Shown here: in pieces, positions 39,318 through 40,252 of the stretch
How positions within the stretch are numbered: the first letter of the stretch is position 1
How the letters are laid out: each line of letters starts with the position of its first letter
From: Dehalococcoidia bacterium
GTDB taxonomy: Bacteria; Chloroflexota; Dehalococcoidia; Bin125
Length of the DNA stretch: 64,000 bases
Assembly: GCA_965215555.1 (NCBI GenBank)
Contig: OZ244071.1
Coordinates: forward strand, 1,038,471-1,102,470
Direction: 5' to 3'
The notes under the pieces: generated by a model
Database searches by the model: none
Told to the model about the DNA's origin: nothing
The model's input: only the letters and a program-made list of their open reading frames with translations
Translations under genes and position numbers: made by a program

Positions 39318-39884
39318 CTATTCGCAGACCGTTACCGTGCCAGCAGGCACATGTCCGTACACCGTGAAGTAGACCTCTCCTCGCCAGTCGCGTTTCTCTT
39401 CGACCACGCCCCATTCGTAGACCGTTTCCGTCGTGCAGTCGGGTATGTCATTCTCGATCTGCGCGTCGTAGGTCACGTGCGTGTTTGTGCTCGGTGAGAA
39501 CGGATCTACGGTCACAGCCACTTCGGTTTGCGGCGAATCCGCGATGCCATCGTCCATGGAACCACGTGGAGCCCCTTCGGTGGTGTTTGCCGTTTCAGAT
39601 TGGTGTGCCGCTTCGTGGACAGACTCCATTGGATCGGGTGCGGGGCGGTCAGGATGTCGATCCACATTCGTACTCTGAGCACCTACGTGGATCGTCTCTG
39701 AGACAATGCCGCACGGAGAGCAGATCGCTCCCAGCATGACATCAGTCGCTGTAGTCCCCAAGGCGGTGACCAAAGGATCGTTAGCAGGGTCATACCGAGG
39801 CTGTGGCTCAGTGTCGCTGTAGGAGTTGTCGTCCTCAGGATCGTGCGCAACGACCGCCGAGGGAAACGCGACAGCTGAGATCAA
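39318..39884 (-). CDS. Hypothetical acidic, probably exported protein; start uncertain (TTG without SD)
   Basis: 188-aa ORF in a low-GC segment, immediately downstream of the 48-bp palindrome. Confidence 0.35.
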   Translation of the reverse strand: MISAVAFPSAVVAHDPEDDNSYSDTEPQPRYDPANDPLVTALGTTATDVMLGAICSPCGIVSETIHVGAQSTNVDRHPDRPAPDPMESVHEAAHQSETANTTEGAPRGSMDDGIADSPQTEVAVTVDPFSPSTNTHVTYDAQIENDIPDCTTETVYEWGVVEEKRDWRGEVYFTVYGHVPAGTVTVCE

Positions 39885-39888
39885 GATC

Positions 39889-39936
39889 AGAGCACTAGCA
39901 ACGCCTACGACTAGTCGTAGGCGTTGCTAGTGCTCT
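39889..39936. repeat. 48-bp perfect palindrome (agagcactagcaacgcctacgact|agtcgtaggcgttgctagtgctct)
   Basis: Seen directly. Followed by a second hairpin (gagtatggt-N14-accatactc, 39937-39968) and a third half-arm copy (39969-39990) inside the upstream gene's 3' end. Confidence 0.8.
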
Positions 39937-39949
39937 GAGTATGGTAAAA

Positions 39950-40252
39950 TTAGGAACTAACCATACTCAGAGCACTAGTAACGCCCACGAACAGAGAACC
40001 CGAGACCATTGCTCTCCGGTAGAGACGTAGGGCCATGTAAGTGGCCATCCCCAACCCACCAGCTATGCCGAGGACGATTCCCCAAGCTACAGATGTCCCA
40101 ACGTTCAAGGCAAATGCCGTGAGGATGAACACCTGAGTTCCAACTATTGCTGCACCTTCAGCGGCCATCCAATGCAAAATCCTAGCTGTGCGATCTTTCA
40201 TCGCACACTCCTTCCACTTCCACCCGCGCAACTGTTGCGTGGCGTAGTACAA
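39950..40252 (-). CDS. Small membrane protein (2 TM), unknown
   Basis: ...AAIVGTQVFILTAFALNVGTSVAWGIVLGIAGGLGMATYMALRLY...; possible start M17 (40204). Confidence 0.4.
   Translation of the reverse strand: MYYATQQLRGWKWKECAMKDRTARILHWMAAEGAAIVGTQVFILTAFALNVGTSVAWGIVLGIAGGLGMATYMALRLYRRAMVSGSLFVGVTSALSMVSS

What the first reader, a model, noticed from the sequence alone, without database searches (positions are those of the whole stretch)
39318..40252. 48-bp perfect palindrome plus satellite hairpins in a low-GC two-gene locus
The 48-bp perfect palindrome is agagcactagcaacgcctacgact|agtcgtaggcgttgctagtgctct (39889-39936). It is immediately followed by a second hairpin (9-bp stem, 14-nt loop). 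A third copy of the palindrome arm lies inside the 3' end of the upstream small membrane-protein gene, where it encodes ...VTSALSMVSS*. The palindrome abuts the TTG start of a downstream acidic exported-protein ORF that has no Shine-Dalgarno sequence. The whole 1-kb segment is clearly AT-richer than its flanks (biotin carboxylase on one side, phosphotransferase on the other). A perfect palindrome of this length is highly non-random. Candidate roles are an operator for a dimeric regulator, a recombination or cruciform site, or a strong bidirectional terminator of a horizontally acquired cassette.
Basis: seen in the sequence. Interest (0 to 1): 0.55.

Follow-up and report, generated by a model that had tools for sequence, protein, structure and literature searches.

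The report
Triple-repeat hairpin splitting a membrane-protein gene
The palindrome is real, but it is only part of an 80-base cassette (three copies of one short coding stretch, the middle copy inverted) that has sat inside a small membrane-protein gene of marine Dehalococcoidia for a very long time, keeping its shape while its sequence changed completely, so it most likely controls how the second half of that gene is made.

Summary
The perfect palindrome is 52 bp (39887-39938), and with a third arm copy (39967-39990) and a 28-nt core it forms an 80-nt cassette: direct copy, core, inverted copy, direct copy. It is single-copy, so it is neither a REP family nor an artefact: five strains and three sequence-unrelated allelic versions from independent assemblies share the architecture. 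The cassette lies inside the third hydrophobic segment of an orphan gene and splits it into ORF1 (83 aa) and ORF2 (188 aa). Deleting one repeat unit restores one ORF in all three complete types. Between types the stems differ by up to 22 double-sided changes, with no G-U pairs. The third copy follows these changes, and one type shows a loop inversion. This points to concerted evolution by DNA template switching. ORF2 stayed under purifying selection (dN/dS 0.12-0.17 at saturated dS) yet lacks a Shine-Dalgarno sequence, a conserved start and a full signal sequence. My inferred reading is that the cassette gates translation of ORF2 through two mutually exclusive mRNA hairpins. An 80-nt ribosomal bypass that makes one polypeptide is not excluded. 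The operator and terminator readings are not supported. Horizontal acquisition is supported.

The parts
39887..39912 (-). B2: the direct copy nearest ORF2 and the left arm of the 52-bp palindrome. On the gene strand it reads AGTCGTAGGCGTTGCTAGTGCTCTGA and is in frame with ORF2 (..VVGVASAL..).
39913..39938 (-). B': the inverted middle copy. It is the right arm of the 52-bp palindrome and also the 3' arm of the long hairpin. It carries a TAG that is in frame with ORF2 (39927-39929).
39939..39966 (-). 28-nt AT-rich core. It forms a small hairpin whose 14-nt loop (39946-39959) contains the ORF1 stop codon TAA (39950-39952). L003 has TAG at this codon.
39967..39992 (-). B1: the direct copy at the 3' end of ORF1 (..FVGVTSAL) and the 5' arm of the long hairpin. 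It is the variable copy among the type-1 strains.
39950..40201 (-). ORF1: 83 aa with two clear hydrophobic segments. It starts at ATG 40199-40201 and is preceded by the Shine-Dalgarno sequence GGAAGGAG (40208-40215).
   Evidence: dN/dS 0.2-0.4
39318..39884 (-). ORF2: 188 aa from TTG 39884, with no Shine-Dalgarno sequence. Its N-terminus is a 12-aa hydrophobic stub followed by V-V-A|HDP, then an acidic region and a conserved C-terminal domain containing Cys residues.
   Evidence: dN/dS 0.12-0.17
40256..40284 (-). Promoter-like signals conserved in three island types: TTGACT (40279-40284), a 17-nt spacer, then TAGGTT (40256-40261).
   Evidence: The signals were not called by the consensus scan, so this is inferred.
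39268..39298 (.). 13-bp GC-rich hairpin between the convergent accC and ORF2. It marks the end of the island unit and is present in all island types.
39196..40398 (.). Block that is nearly identical among five strains whose flanks are 3-6% divergent. It contains the low-GC island (about 39269-40329) plus about 70 bp of each neighbouring gene.

Best explanation
ANATOMY. The palindrome is two of three copies (B1 direct, B' inverted, B2 direct) of a 25-26-nt piece of coding sequence. Together with a 28-nt AT-rich core they form an 80-nt single-copy cassette. The cassette lies inside the third hydrophobic (signal-anchor-like) segment of a lineage-specific membrane-protein gene of about 267 aa in a mobile low-GC island of Dehalococcoidia. 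It cuts that gene into ORF1 and ORF2.

SHOWN. The cassette is ancient and sits at the same codon position in three allelic types whose synonymous sites are saturated. Its three copies evolve in concert at the DNA level by polymerase template switching or gene conversion between the copies. This keeps the stems purely Watson-Crick while the sequence turns over. ORF2 has remained a functional coding sequence throughout.

INFERRED. The cassette is kept by selection as a translational gate. On the mRNA the copies form two mutually exclusive hairpins. The more stable one, B1:B', holds the ORF1 stop codon in its loop. The other, B':B2, ends 2-5 nt before the first possible ORF2 start codon, and ORF2 has no Shine-Dalgarno sequence. 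A ribosome translating ORF1 melts B1, and B' re-pairs with B2. That places the ORF1 stop and the ORF2 start side by side at the base of a compact hairpin, so ORF2 is translated only by ribosomes that have just finished ORF1 (termination-reinitiation across the hairpin). The cassette therefore sets the ratio of the two products.
For: Architecture. Single copy: (one locus in a 3.6-Mb relative chromosome). Same architecture from unrelated sequence: type 2 (L019) has direct-repeat spacing 80, a 35-bp perfect hairpin and a 26+26 palindrome. Type 4 (L029/L030) has spacing 81, a 33-bp hairpin and 23-bp arms. No net indel: the distance from the ORF1 ATG to the conserved SAVAF codons is 323 nt in both types 1 and 2. 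Concerted evolution: 30 stem positions are Watson-Crick in all three types. Type 1 vs 2 has 22 of 33 pairs changed on both sides and none on one side. Type 2 vs 4 has 6 double changes. There are no G-U pairs in the stems. Four of the 5 arm differences between types 2 and 4 are present in all three copies, and the fifth in both direct copies. Loop inversion: ATTGTTAC vs GTAACAAT between contigs that otherwise agree over the first ~5.4 kb, including the whole island. This is the known signature of template switching (PMC8604942; PMC8794818). Age and function of the ORFs: ORF2 dN/dS is 0.12-0.17 at dS 1.3-1.9, and ORF1 is 0.2-0.4. Signals: the only conserved promoter-like and Shine-Dalgarno signals lie upstream of ORF1, and there is no Shine-Dalgarno-like motif before ORF2 in types 1, 2 and 4. 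Stop position: the ORF1 stop lies in or at the edge of the hairpin loop in all four types. RNA energies: the long hairpin is -57 to -76 kcal/mol and the alternative is -51 to -54 kcal/mol, with z-scores of -7 to -9. Post-termination sliding and re-initiation by 70S ribosomes is an established process (abstract of PMC11194080). Population argument (inference): 25-nt direct repeats flanking a hairpin are intrinsically prone to deletion, so persistence over dS > 1 implies selection for keeping the cassette.
Against: There are no expression data. The stems are purely Watson-Crick, and recent stem substitutions in type-1 strains show no preference for G-U (3 of 7 would still pair as G-U). Nothing therefore shows RNA-level selection directly. 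The structure could be maintained by the DNA mechanism alone. The candidate start codons are not positionally conserved (TTG in type 1; GTG/ATG in type 2; GTG/TTG in type 4). A TM-grade third hydrophobic segment followed by an AXA|HDP signal-peptidase-like motif exists only in the uninterrupted reading in all three types. This fits one continuous polypeptide better than two. The third copy (B1 = B2, same codon phase) is not required by a coupling model and has to be treated as inherited history. In type 4 the palindrome has a 3-nt spacer and mismatches, so exact juxtaposition is not essential.
Confidence: 0.4

Rival explanations
1. Programmed translational bypass (ribosome hop). Elongating ribosomes do not unwind the long B1:B' hairpin. 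They move about 80 nt from codons in B1 to the identical codons in B2, which lies immediately after the base of the hairpin. This makes one polypeptide of about 267 aa. Ribosomes that do unwind the hairpin terminate at the stop in its loop and make only the 83-aa anchor.
For: B1 and B2 are identical or nearly identical 25-nt stretches in the same codon phase in all three complete types, and removing one unit gives one ORF. The third TM-grade hydrophobic segment, preceded by a positive loop (RLYRR / RKK / RR) and followed by AXA|HDP, exists only in the joined reading. ORF2 has no Shine-Dalgarno sequence and no conserved start. TTG (Leu) in type 1 aligns with CTC (Leu) in types 2 and 4. The take-off side lies in the 5' arm of a stem-loop and a stop codon lies in the gap, as in T4 gene 60. 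B' and B2 have zero or near-zero spacing, so the landing copy starts right at the hairpin base.
Against: The prior is very low: bypassing is established only for gene 60 cassettes of T4-like phages and for byps in Magnusiomyces mitochondria. Several gene 60 features are absent. The stop is 3-5 codons after the repeat rather than adjacent. There is no Shine-Dalgarno-like element before the landing site. The last sense codon of ORF1 has a matching in-frame downstream codon in type 2 (AUA) but not in type 1 (read directly from the sequence). An 80-81-nt gap would be the longest known. B2 can be buried in a 23-26-bp duplex with B'.
Confidence: 0.15
2. No function. An old inverted triplication (a template-switch accident) split the gene. 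It persists only because template switching keeps re-homogenising the copies. ORF2 is translated on its own from the nearest NTG codon.
For: The stems are all Watson-Crick and there is a loop flip, exactly as expected from the DNA mechanism alone (PMC8604942, PMC8794818). Type-1 strains are accumulating disruptions of the long hairpin. One variant (type 3, L022) has lost the third copy. Inverted triplications are a known replication error (PMC4689423).
Against: Homogenisation does not protect against deletion. Direct repeats flanking a hairpin should be lost quickly, yet length and position are conserved at dS 1.3-1.9. The first 12 nt of the arm are unchanged between types 2 and 4 although pS is 0.66. 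ORF2 has had ample time to evolve a Shine-Dalgarno sequence but has none. The only variant without a complete cassette also carries a frameshift in ORF2.
Confidence: 0.2
3. One-way DNA switch. Slipped-strand deletion between the 25-nt direct repeats, stimulated by the hairpin, precisely removes 80 bp in a fraction of cells and restores the uninterrupted gene. The assembled 'germline' form is the OFF state.
For: Removal of exactly one unit is in frame in all types. DNA strand switching is active at the locus. The joined protein looks like the product the gene was built to make.
Against: The switch would be irreversible. None of the 12 contigs carrying the island shows the deleted form. It is hard to see how purifying selection on ORF2 would be maintained in the non-excised lineage.
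Confidence: 0.1
4. Intercistronic mRNA stabiliser or processing site. The very stable hairpin protects the upstream ORF1 message from 3' exonucleases, or is cut by RNase III. This gives different amounts of the two products, as described for REP sequences in the malEFG operon (established knowledge).
For: The hairpin is very stable and lies just after the ORF1 stop, between co-transcribed ORFs.
Against: This does not explain the third copy, its codon phase, or the lack of initiation signals for ORF2. A 31-35-bp perfect stem far exceeds what is needed.
Confidence: 0.1
5. One reading: an operator for a dimeric regulator, a bidirectional terminator, a REP family member, or an assembly artefact.
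For: The palindrome is long and perfect, and the segment was horizontally acquired.
Against: The arm sequence is not conserved between allelic types. There is no U-tract and no terminator call. The element lies inside a transcription unit. It is single-copy. It has been recovered in independent short-read and long-read assemblies.
Confidence: 0.03

Closest known systems
Inverted repeats homogenised by polymerase template switching (Ripley-type quasi-palindrome correction; PMC8604942, PMC8794818)
   Same: The arms are perfect and all Watson-Crick. Multi-base compensatory changes are fixed on both arms. The spacer (loop) is inverted between near-identical genomes. It occurs inside coding DNA.
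   Different: Here three copies (two direct, one inverted) co-evolve rather than two. The arms are 25-35 nt rather than 7-16 nt. The structure is kept at one homologous site across alleles with saturated synonymous divergence. It interrupts the reading frame instead of being translated through.
Coding palindromes in Nematomorpha mitochondrial genes (PMC6649704)
   Same: Long perfect inverted repeats are embedded in protein-coding genes and preserved together with protein function.
   Different: There both arms are translated as part of one continuous ORF. Here the inverted copy carries in-frame stops and the ORF is broken. That case is mitochondrial with many loci per genome, whereas this is a single bacterial locus.
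T4 gene 60 coding gap and Magnusiomyces 'byp' inserts (programmed translational bypassing; 10.1101/2022.08.31.505936)
   Same: A short non-coding insert lies inside an ORF. The sequence matches on both sides of the gap. The take-off side is in the 5' arm of a stem-loop. There is a stop codon within the gap. The downstream part has no initiation signals.
   Different: The gap is 80-81 nt against 50 nt (gene 60) or 27-55 nt (byps). The matched stretch is 25 nt rather than one codon. The stop is not adjacent to the matched codons. There is no Shine-Dalgarno-like landing aid. There is no homing-endonuclease context. It is single-copy. No product has been demonstrated.
Inverted triplications / tandem inversion duplications (ODIRA model, PMC4689423; Salmonella TID, from my own knowledge)
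   Same: The order is direct-inverted-direct, with one junction at a short pre-existing hairpin and one zero-spacer junction, as expected from two successive template switches.
   Different: Those are kb-to-Mb amplifications that are unstable and are remodelled quickly. This one is 26-nt units, fixed and ancient.
Three-segment translational attenuators (ermC type) and intercistronic REP/BIME hairpins (established knowledge)
   Same: A middle segment can pair with either neighbour. One pairing covers the initiation region of the downstream ORF. The choice depends on a ribosome translating the upstream ORF. It is a stable hairpin between co-transcribed ORFs.
   Different: The upstream ORF is an 83-aa membrane protein rather than a short leader peptide. 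The segments are exact copies of coding sequence. There is no Shine-Dalgarno sequence to mask. It is not a dispersed repeat.

Membership tests
REP/BIME-type dispersed palindromic repeats | Many copies dispersed through the genome | tested here: not met
   There is no other copy in the 64-kb window at up to 3 mismatches. The 18-specified-base pattern occurs at one locus only in the 3.6-Mb chromosome of a 96%-identical relative, and nowhere else meaningful in the species-representative genome collection or the JGI metagenome contig collection. Diverged copies would have been missed.
REP/BIME-type dispersed palindromic repeats | A family consensus sequence independent of the local genes | tested here: not met
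   The arms are copies of the adjacent coding sequence and differ completely between allelic types.
Intrinsic (Rho-independent) terminator | A GC-rich stem followed directly by a U-tract | tested here: not met
   The scan makes no terminator call at the element. The sequence after either hairpin is not T-rich on either strand.
Intrinsic (Rho-independent) terminator | Located at the end of a transcription unit | tested here: not met
   ORF2 lies downstream under purifying selection, with no promoter or Shine-Dalgarno signals of its own. The conserved signals are found only upstream of ORF1.
Operator of a dimeric DNA-binding regulator | Half-site sequence conserved among orthologous loci | tested here: not met
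   Arm identity between types 1 and 2 is at the random level, with 22 of 33 pairs changed on both sides.
Operator of a dimeric DNA-binding regulator | Overlaps or adjoins the promoter it controls | tested here: not met
   It lies about 330 nt downstream of the only conserved promoter-like signals, inside the coding unit.
MITE / IS-derived element | Terminal inverted repeats, a short (2-10 bp) target duplication, and multiple copies | tested here: not met
   The flanking direct repeats are 25 nt and are themselves complementary to the interior. The element is single-copy. A genuine MITE-like family exists elsewhere in the window (62503-62680) and is unrelated.
Template-switch-homogenised inverted repeat | Arms perfectly Watson-Crick, with changes appearing on both arms together | tested here: met
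   30 positions are Watson-Crick in all three types, with 22 and 6 double-sided changes and no G-U pairs in the stems.
Template-switch-homogenised inverted repeat | Spacer inversion polymorphism on unchanged arms | tested here: met
   The loop is ATTGTTAC in L019/L020 and GTAACAAT in L018/L021, on contigs that otherwise agree over the first ~5.4 kb. Caveat: a flipped loop equals the reverse complement of the whole hairpin, so an assembler ambiguity cannot be excluded without the reads.
T4 gene 60-type programmed bypass | Matched take-off and landing codons flanking a non-coding gap | tested here: met
   Eight codons are repeated in the same phase 80-81 nt apart in types 1, 2 and 4.
T4 gene 60-type programmed bypass | Take-off codon in the 5' side of a stem-loop | tested here: met
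   B1 is the 5' arm of the 31-35-bp hairpin.
T4 gene 60-type programmed bypass | A stop or slow codon immediately 3' of the take-off codon | tested here: not met
   The stop lies 5 (type 1), 3 (type 2) or 5 (type 4) codons after the end of the repeat.
T4 gene 60-type programmed bypass | A Shine-Dalgarno-like element a few nt 5' of the landing site | tested here: not met
   No GGAG, GAGG, AGGA or AAGG occurs in the 35-44 nt before the ORF2 start region in any type.
T4 gene 60-type programmed bypass | A single polypeptide spanning the gap is produced; nascent-peptide signal | not testable with these tools
   This needs proteomics or in-vitro translation.
Known RNA families (Rfam 15) | Match at or above a family's gathering score | tested here: not met
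   Only generic miRNA-precursor look-alikes appear, at 24-36 bits against gathering scores of 74-99.
Known protein families for ORF1/ORF2 | A Pfam, PADLOC or database homologue outside this locus | tested here: not met
   No Pfam hit reaches its cut-off and there are no PADLOC hits. The only credible database matches are fragments or full calls of the same locus. One weak 37-residue match (P0136) was not examined.

The most novel reading that the evidence does not exclude
The cassette is a bacterial chromosomal coding gap. Ribosomes hop 80-81 nt from the B1 codons to the identical B2 codons at the foot of a 31-35-bp hairpin and make one membrane-anchored, signal-peptidase-cleavable protein of about 267 aa. 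The hairpin's stop codon yields a truncated anchor as a second product. DNA template switching keeps the take-off, hairpin and landing sequences matched. This would be the first cellular (non-phage, non-mitochondrial) programmed bypass and the longest known.
Probability: 0.15. Interest if true: 0.9.

Novelty: new variant of a known kind. Interest (0 to 1): 0.62.

Why it matters
Long perfect palindromes and hairpin-flanking direct repeats are normally short-lived in bacterial chromosomes. Here one has been carried at the same codon of a functional gene through complete sequence turnover. This gives a natural example of three-way concerted evolution by template switching at nucleotide resolution. 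It also shows that such a structure can be compatible with, and probably useful for, expression of a split gene. If the downstream half is made by re-initiation across the hairpin, this is an unusual coupling device. If it is made by bypassing, it would extend programmed ribosome hopping to cellular bacterial genes and provide several naturally co-varying versions for experiments. The practical lesson for annotation is that public gene calls at this locus are fragmentary (79, 63 and 82 aa) or missing because of the cassette.

Tried and rejected
- **Rfam:** only generic hairpin look-alikes, all below their gathering scores.
- **Consensus promoter/terminator scan:** nothing at the element.
- **Pattern scans of genome and metagenome collections:** apart from L003, the seven other hits are single matches with no similarity to the window. 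They are consistent with chance for 18 specified bases.
- **First protein search with the joined ORF:** found nothing, although the locus exists in the collection as fragment calls. The word index evidently missed it. The exhaustive search and a profile of the C-terminal domain found only the locus itself.
- **Pfam and PADLOC:** no family.
- **AlphaFold2 of ORF2:** mean pLDDT 43, usable only for a C-terminal four-strand meander, so no fold search was run.
- **Gene 60-style take-off at the last sense codon of ORF1:** type 2 has a matching in-frame AUA downstream, but type 1 has no matching UCC. Rejected as a conserved feature (read from the sequence).
- **Frameshifting:** the ORF2 frame is closed by a TAG in the middle arm downstream of the ORF1 stop, so there is no overlap to shift in.
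- **Stop-codon readthrough:** two in-frame stops lie in type 4, and types 1 and 2 are out of frame.
- **Integron attC core sites (RYYYAAC / GTTRRRY) and an archaeal-type bulge-helix-bulge splice motif:** neither is present, by inspection.
- **RNA-level selection on recent stem substitutions:** 3 of 7 would still pair as G-U, which is no enrichment.
- **Type 3 (L022):** a hairpin with an in-frame TAG and no third copy. It rests on one 1.15-kb contig and carries a +1 frameshift in ORF2. I treat it as a probably decaying variant, not as evidence for readthrough.
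Full report
**1. The observation**

The sequence at 39887-39938 is a perfect palindrome of 26+26 bp with no spacer. It is followed by GAGTATGGT, a 14-nt loop, then ACCATACTC (39937-39968), and then by a third copy of the arm at 39967-39990. That copy is 92% identical to the arm and lies 80 bp away as a direct repeat.

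The middle arm plus the small stem also pairs with the small stem plus the third copy, giving 31 nt at 94% complementarity with a 14-nt loop. The locus therefore holds two overlapping, mutually exclusive hairpins.

Nothing comparable exists elsewhere in the 64-kb window. The half-site has no further copy at up to 3 mismatches. About 5e-11 such palindromes are expected by chance. Either strand folds far better than shuffled sequence, at -66.6 and -64.4 kcal/mol with z-scores of -7.4 and -8.7. The low GC content is real: 0.52-0.54 against 0.60-0.66 in the flanks, and GC3 of 0.51 and 0.63 against 0.77-0.78 in the neighbouring genes.

**2. Anatomy on the coding strand**

Both small ORFs are on the minus strand.

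- ORF1 runs from ATG 40201 to its stop at 39950-39952 (83 aa). It has a strong Shine-Dalgarno sequence, GGAAGGAG.
- ORF1 ends ...FVGVTSAL-SMVSS*. The VGVTSAL part is encoded by the third copy (B1), and the stop codon lies in the loop of the small hairpin.
- Next come the inverted copy (B', 39938-39913) and the second direct copy (B2, 39912-39887).
- Two nt after B2 comes the TTG of ORF2 (39884-39318, 188 aa), which has no Shine-Dalgarno sequence.

B1 and B2 encode VGV(T/A)SAL in the same codon phase. Removing exactly one repeat unit (80 nt) yields one uninterrupted ORF of 267 aa. The ORF2 frame is closed upstream by a TAG inside B'.

**3. It is single-copy, and not an artefact**

A scan of one genome per bacterial and archaeal species for an 18-specified-base version of the half-site found one meaningful locus. 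This is a Dehalococcoidia MAG chromosome (OZ219805.1, 3.6 Mb; locus L003), where the pattern occurs only at the syntenic site. The other genome hits and the four metagenome hits are single chance matches.

Homologues of the flanking phosphotransferase led to four more 'type-1' copies in different contigs and strains. They also led to structurally equivalent cassettes in short-read SPAdes/MEGAHIT assemblies, a Tara Oceans scaffold and a Logan contig.

**4. The island**

In relatives, the slot between the phosphotransferase gene and accC holds a 277-aa luciferase-like monooxygenase gene. This gene is found alone in L010-L016, L024 and L026-L028. In L018-L021 and L029-L030 it sits together with the two-ORF island. 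In the window's clade the island sits directly next to accC and the monooxygenase gene is gone.

Among the five type-1 strains the flanks vary at 32 of 498 sites. In the block 39196-40398 only 14 of 1203 sites vary. Between allelic types the reverse holds:

| Comparison | dS |
|---|---|
| ORF2, between types | 1.3-1.9 |
| Neighbouring phosphotransferase, type-1 vs type-2 hosts | 0.25 |

The island is therefore an old, polymorphic cassette that moves between backbones by recombination.

**5. The decisive comparison**

The type-2 island (L019) is about 77% identical to the window's, and the type-4 island (L029/L030) is equally distant. Both have the same cassette at the same place, built from different sequence.

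| Feature | Type 1 (window) | Type 2 (L019) | Type 4 (L029/L030) |
|---|---|---|---|
| Direct-repeat spacing | 80 | 80 | 81 |
| Long hairpin | 31 bp (perfect in the inferred ancestor) | 35 bp, perfect | 33 bp, 97% |
| Palindrome | 26+26, perfect, no spacer | 26+26, 25/26, no spacer | 23-bp arms, 3-nt spacer |
| ORF1 stop | in the loop | at the stem-loop edge | in the loop |
| ORF2 start candidates | TTG, 2 nt after B2 | GVG-type: GTG/ATG, within 5 nt of B2 | GTG/TTG, at the end of B2 |

The distance from the ORF1 ATG to the conserved SAVAF codons is 323 nt in both types 1 and 2. There has therefore been no net indel, although the cassette sequences are only about 30% identical.

Thirty stem positions are Watson-Crick in all three types. 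Between types 1 and 2, 22 of the 33 positions paired in both have changed on both sides and none on one side only. Between types 2 and 4 there are six double changes. There are no G-U pairs in the stems. Of the five arm differences between types 2 and 4, four are present in all three copies and the fifth in both direct copies.

In every complete type, removing one repeat unit gives a single ORF.

**6. How the structure is maintained (shown, up to the named mechanism)**

Stems that are purely Watson-Crick, with multi-site double changes, point to copying at the DNA level rather than RNA-level compensation.

In addition, the four type-2 contigs are identical over the first ~5.4 kb, including the whole island, except for the 8-nt loop (the only other differences cluster in the last ~30 nt of the alignment). 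The loop reads ATTGTTAC in two contigs and its exact reverse complement, GTAACAAT, in the other two.

Arm homogenisation plus spacer inversion is the documented signature of polymerase template switching between inverted repeats (PMC8604942; PMC8794818). The direct-inverted-direct order is what two successive switches produce (inverted triplication; PMC4689423).

One caveat applies. A flipped loop is the reverse complement of the whole hairpin, so reads are needed to exclude an assembler choice.

**7. The genes are real, and the cassette sits in one protein segment**

- ORF2 has dN/dS of 0.12-0.17 in all pairwise comparisons, and ORF1 has 0.2-0.4. Because all types carry the cassette, this selection acted while the cassette was present.
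- Neither ORF has a Pfam or PADLOC family, or any homologue outside this locus. The only other database match is a weak 37-residue hit (P0136) that I did not examine. Public gene calls at the locus are mostly fragments.
- Upstream of ORF1, three island types share CTTGAC, a 17-nt spacer, TAGNTT and a strong Shine-Dalgarno sequence.
- Nothing Shine-Dalgarno-like precedes ORF2 in types 1, 2 and 4. The candidate start codons are not positionally conserved. TTG (Leu) in type 1 aligns with CTC (Leu) in types 2 and 4.
- In all three complete types, a third TM-grade hydrophobic segment exists only in the joined reading, with Kyte-Doolittle peaks of 2.0-2.1. It is preceded by a positively charged loop and followed by V-V-A|HDP, A-S-A|HDP or A-D-A|HDP.

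The cassette therefore lies in the middle of what looks like a signal-anchor with a signal-peptidase-like site. That last step is an inference from sequence features, not a test.

**8. What it most likely does (inferred)**

A structure with 25-nt direct repeats around a hairpin should be lost quickly by slipped-strand deletion. Its retention, without a net indel in types 1 and 2, through saturated synonymous divergence argues that selection keeps it. The arm's first 12 nt are also invariant between types 2 and 4 despite pS of 0.66. The one variant lacking the third copy (type 3, L022) also has a +1 frameshift in ORF2.

On the mRNA, the long hairpin B1:B' (-57 to -76 kcal/mol) and the B':B2 hairpin (-51 to -54 kcal/mol) exclude each other. 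I propose a translational gate:

1. A ribosome translating ORF1 opens B1.
2. B' then re-pairs with B2.
3. This puts the ORF1 stop and the ORF2 start at the foot of one compact hairpin.
4. ORF2 is therefore made by ribosomes that have just terminated.

Post-termination sliding and re-initiation is established (PMC11194080). My confidence is about 0.4 for this functional reading, and about 0.9 for the structural and evolutionary description.

**9. Rivals**

- **Ribosomal bypass of 80-81 nt (0.15).** This fits the protein features and the same-phase repeats better than coupling does. It lacks several gene 60 hallmarks and has a very low prior.
- **A function-less structure maintained only by template switching (0.2).**
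- **One-way precise excision in a subpopulation (0.1).**
- **An mRNA stabiliser or processing hairpin (0.1).**
- **Operator, terminator, REP family or artefact (about 0.03 together).** These are contradicted by the results above.

**10. Unexplained**

Among the five type-1 strains, 8 of the 14 variable island sites lie in the 106-bp cassette (P = 7e-6). All eight avoid the 52-bp palindrome (P = 0.005). They fall as follows:

- four hit B1, three of them in one hexamer, GCTAGT;
- one hits the outer edge of B1;
- two hit the small stem;
- one hits the loop, changing TAA to TAG.

By majority rule the ancestral long hairpin was perfect, and most lineages have since weakened it independently. Positive selection against an over-stable hairpin, error-prone synthesis next to an extruded palindrome, and long-read consensus errors all remain possible.

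**11. Novelty**

The maintenance mechanism is known. The closest analogues are template-switch-homogenised repeats, the coding palindromes of Nematomorpha mitochondria (PMC6649704) and bypass cassettes. I found no description of a single-copy, three-copy co-evolving hairpin cassette kept inside a bacterial gene. I rate it a new variant of a known kind, with a minority chance of being something much more unusual.

Noticed in passing
window 62503-62680: A MITE-like element with outer inverted repeats TAGGGCGTGTTCACAT / ATGTGAACACGCCCTA and inner GC-rich hairpins (CCGTCATTGCCGCGCTTGTCGCGGCAA...). The same family fills the phosphotransferase/monooxygenase spacer in relatives L024 and L026. It is a genuine dispersed palindromic family in this lineage and is unrelated to the finding.
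   Followed up: partly
L013-L016 3497-3589; L024 3708-3724: Another small GC-rich palindromic repeat, CCCCGCGTGAAGCGGGG, occurs twice in inverted orientation in the 'empty' slot of relatives. It is absent from the window. The slot downstream of the phosphotransferase gene looks like an insertion hot spot.
   Followed up: partly
window 39196-40398 versus flanks: The island block is about 10-fold less variable among five strains than the adjacent genes. The sharp boundaries (last and first flank differences at 39195 and 40399) lie about 70 bp inside accC and the phosphotransferase gene. This suggests a recent recombinational sweep of this allele across diverged backbones.
   Followed up: partly
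window 39940-39989: A substitution hot spot holds 8 of the 14 variable island sites. All of them weaken the long hairpin or alter its loop, and none touches the 52-bp palindrome. Three fall in the hexamer GCTAGT (changed to ACTAGT, GCTAGC and GCTATT). The cause is unknown.
   Followed up: partly
window about 40217-40245 (gene strand, just upstream of the ORF1 Shine-Dalgarno sequence); L019 about 3525-3550; L022 about 192-215: There is a small hairpin in the putative 5' UTR directly before the Shine-Dalgarno sequence. It appears to co-vary among island types (CCACGC..GCGTGG in type 2; TGTGCGA..TCGCACA in type 3). It could be a second regulatory structure of the unit.
   Followed up: no
L022 (Logan DRR466688) 452-511 and about 781: A third island type has only a 21-bp hairpin with an in-frame TAG in its loop. 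It has no third arm copy, ORF1 and the upstream part of ORF2 share one frame, and ORF2 carries a +1 frameshift. It is probably a decaying allele, but it rests on a single short contig.
   Followed up: partly
protein P0141 (NCBI LXNI01, 9.4-kb contig): A fifth ORF2 allele has the N-terminus MFLVFVGFSTPVQA|HDP. Its contig could not be fetched because the look-ups were exhausted, so its cassette is unknown.
   Followed up: no
L026 971-1918: An IS110-family transposase gene is inserted between the two phosphotransferase paralogues in one relative. This is further evidence that the neighbourhood is rearrangement-prone.
   Followed up: no
window 18894-18928: A perfect 16-bp inverted repeat with a 3-nt loop (ACAACGAAGCCCCGCC / GGCGGGGCTTCGTTGT). 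It is the only other perfect inverted repeat of 16 bp or more in the window and looks like an ordinary terminator-type hairpin.
   Followed up: no
window 40330-41313 and 41932-42921: Two paralogous phosphotransferase (APH-family, PF01636) genes flank a 4HBT thioesterase gene. This arrangement is conserved in all relatives examined.
   Followed up: no
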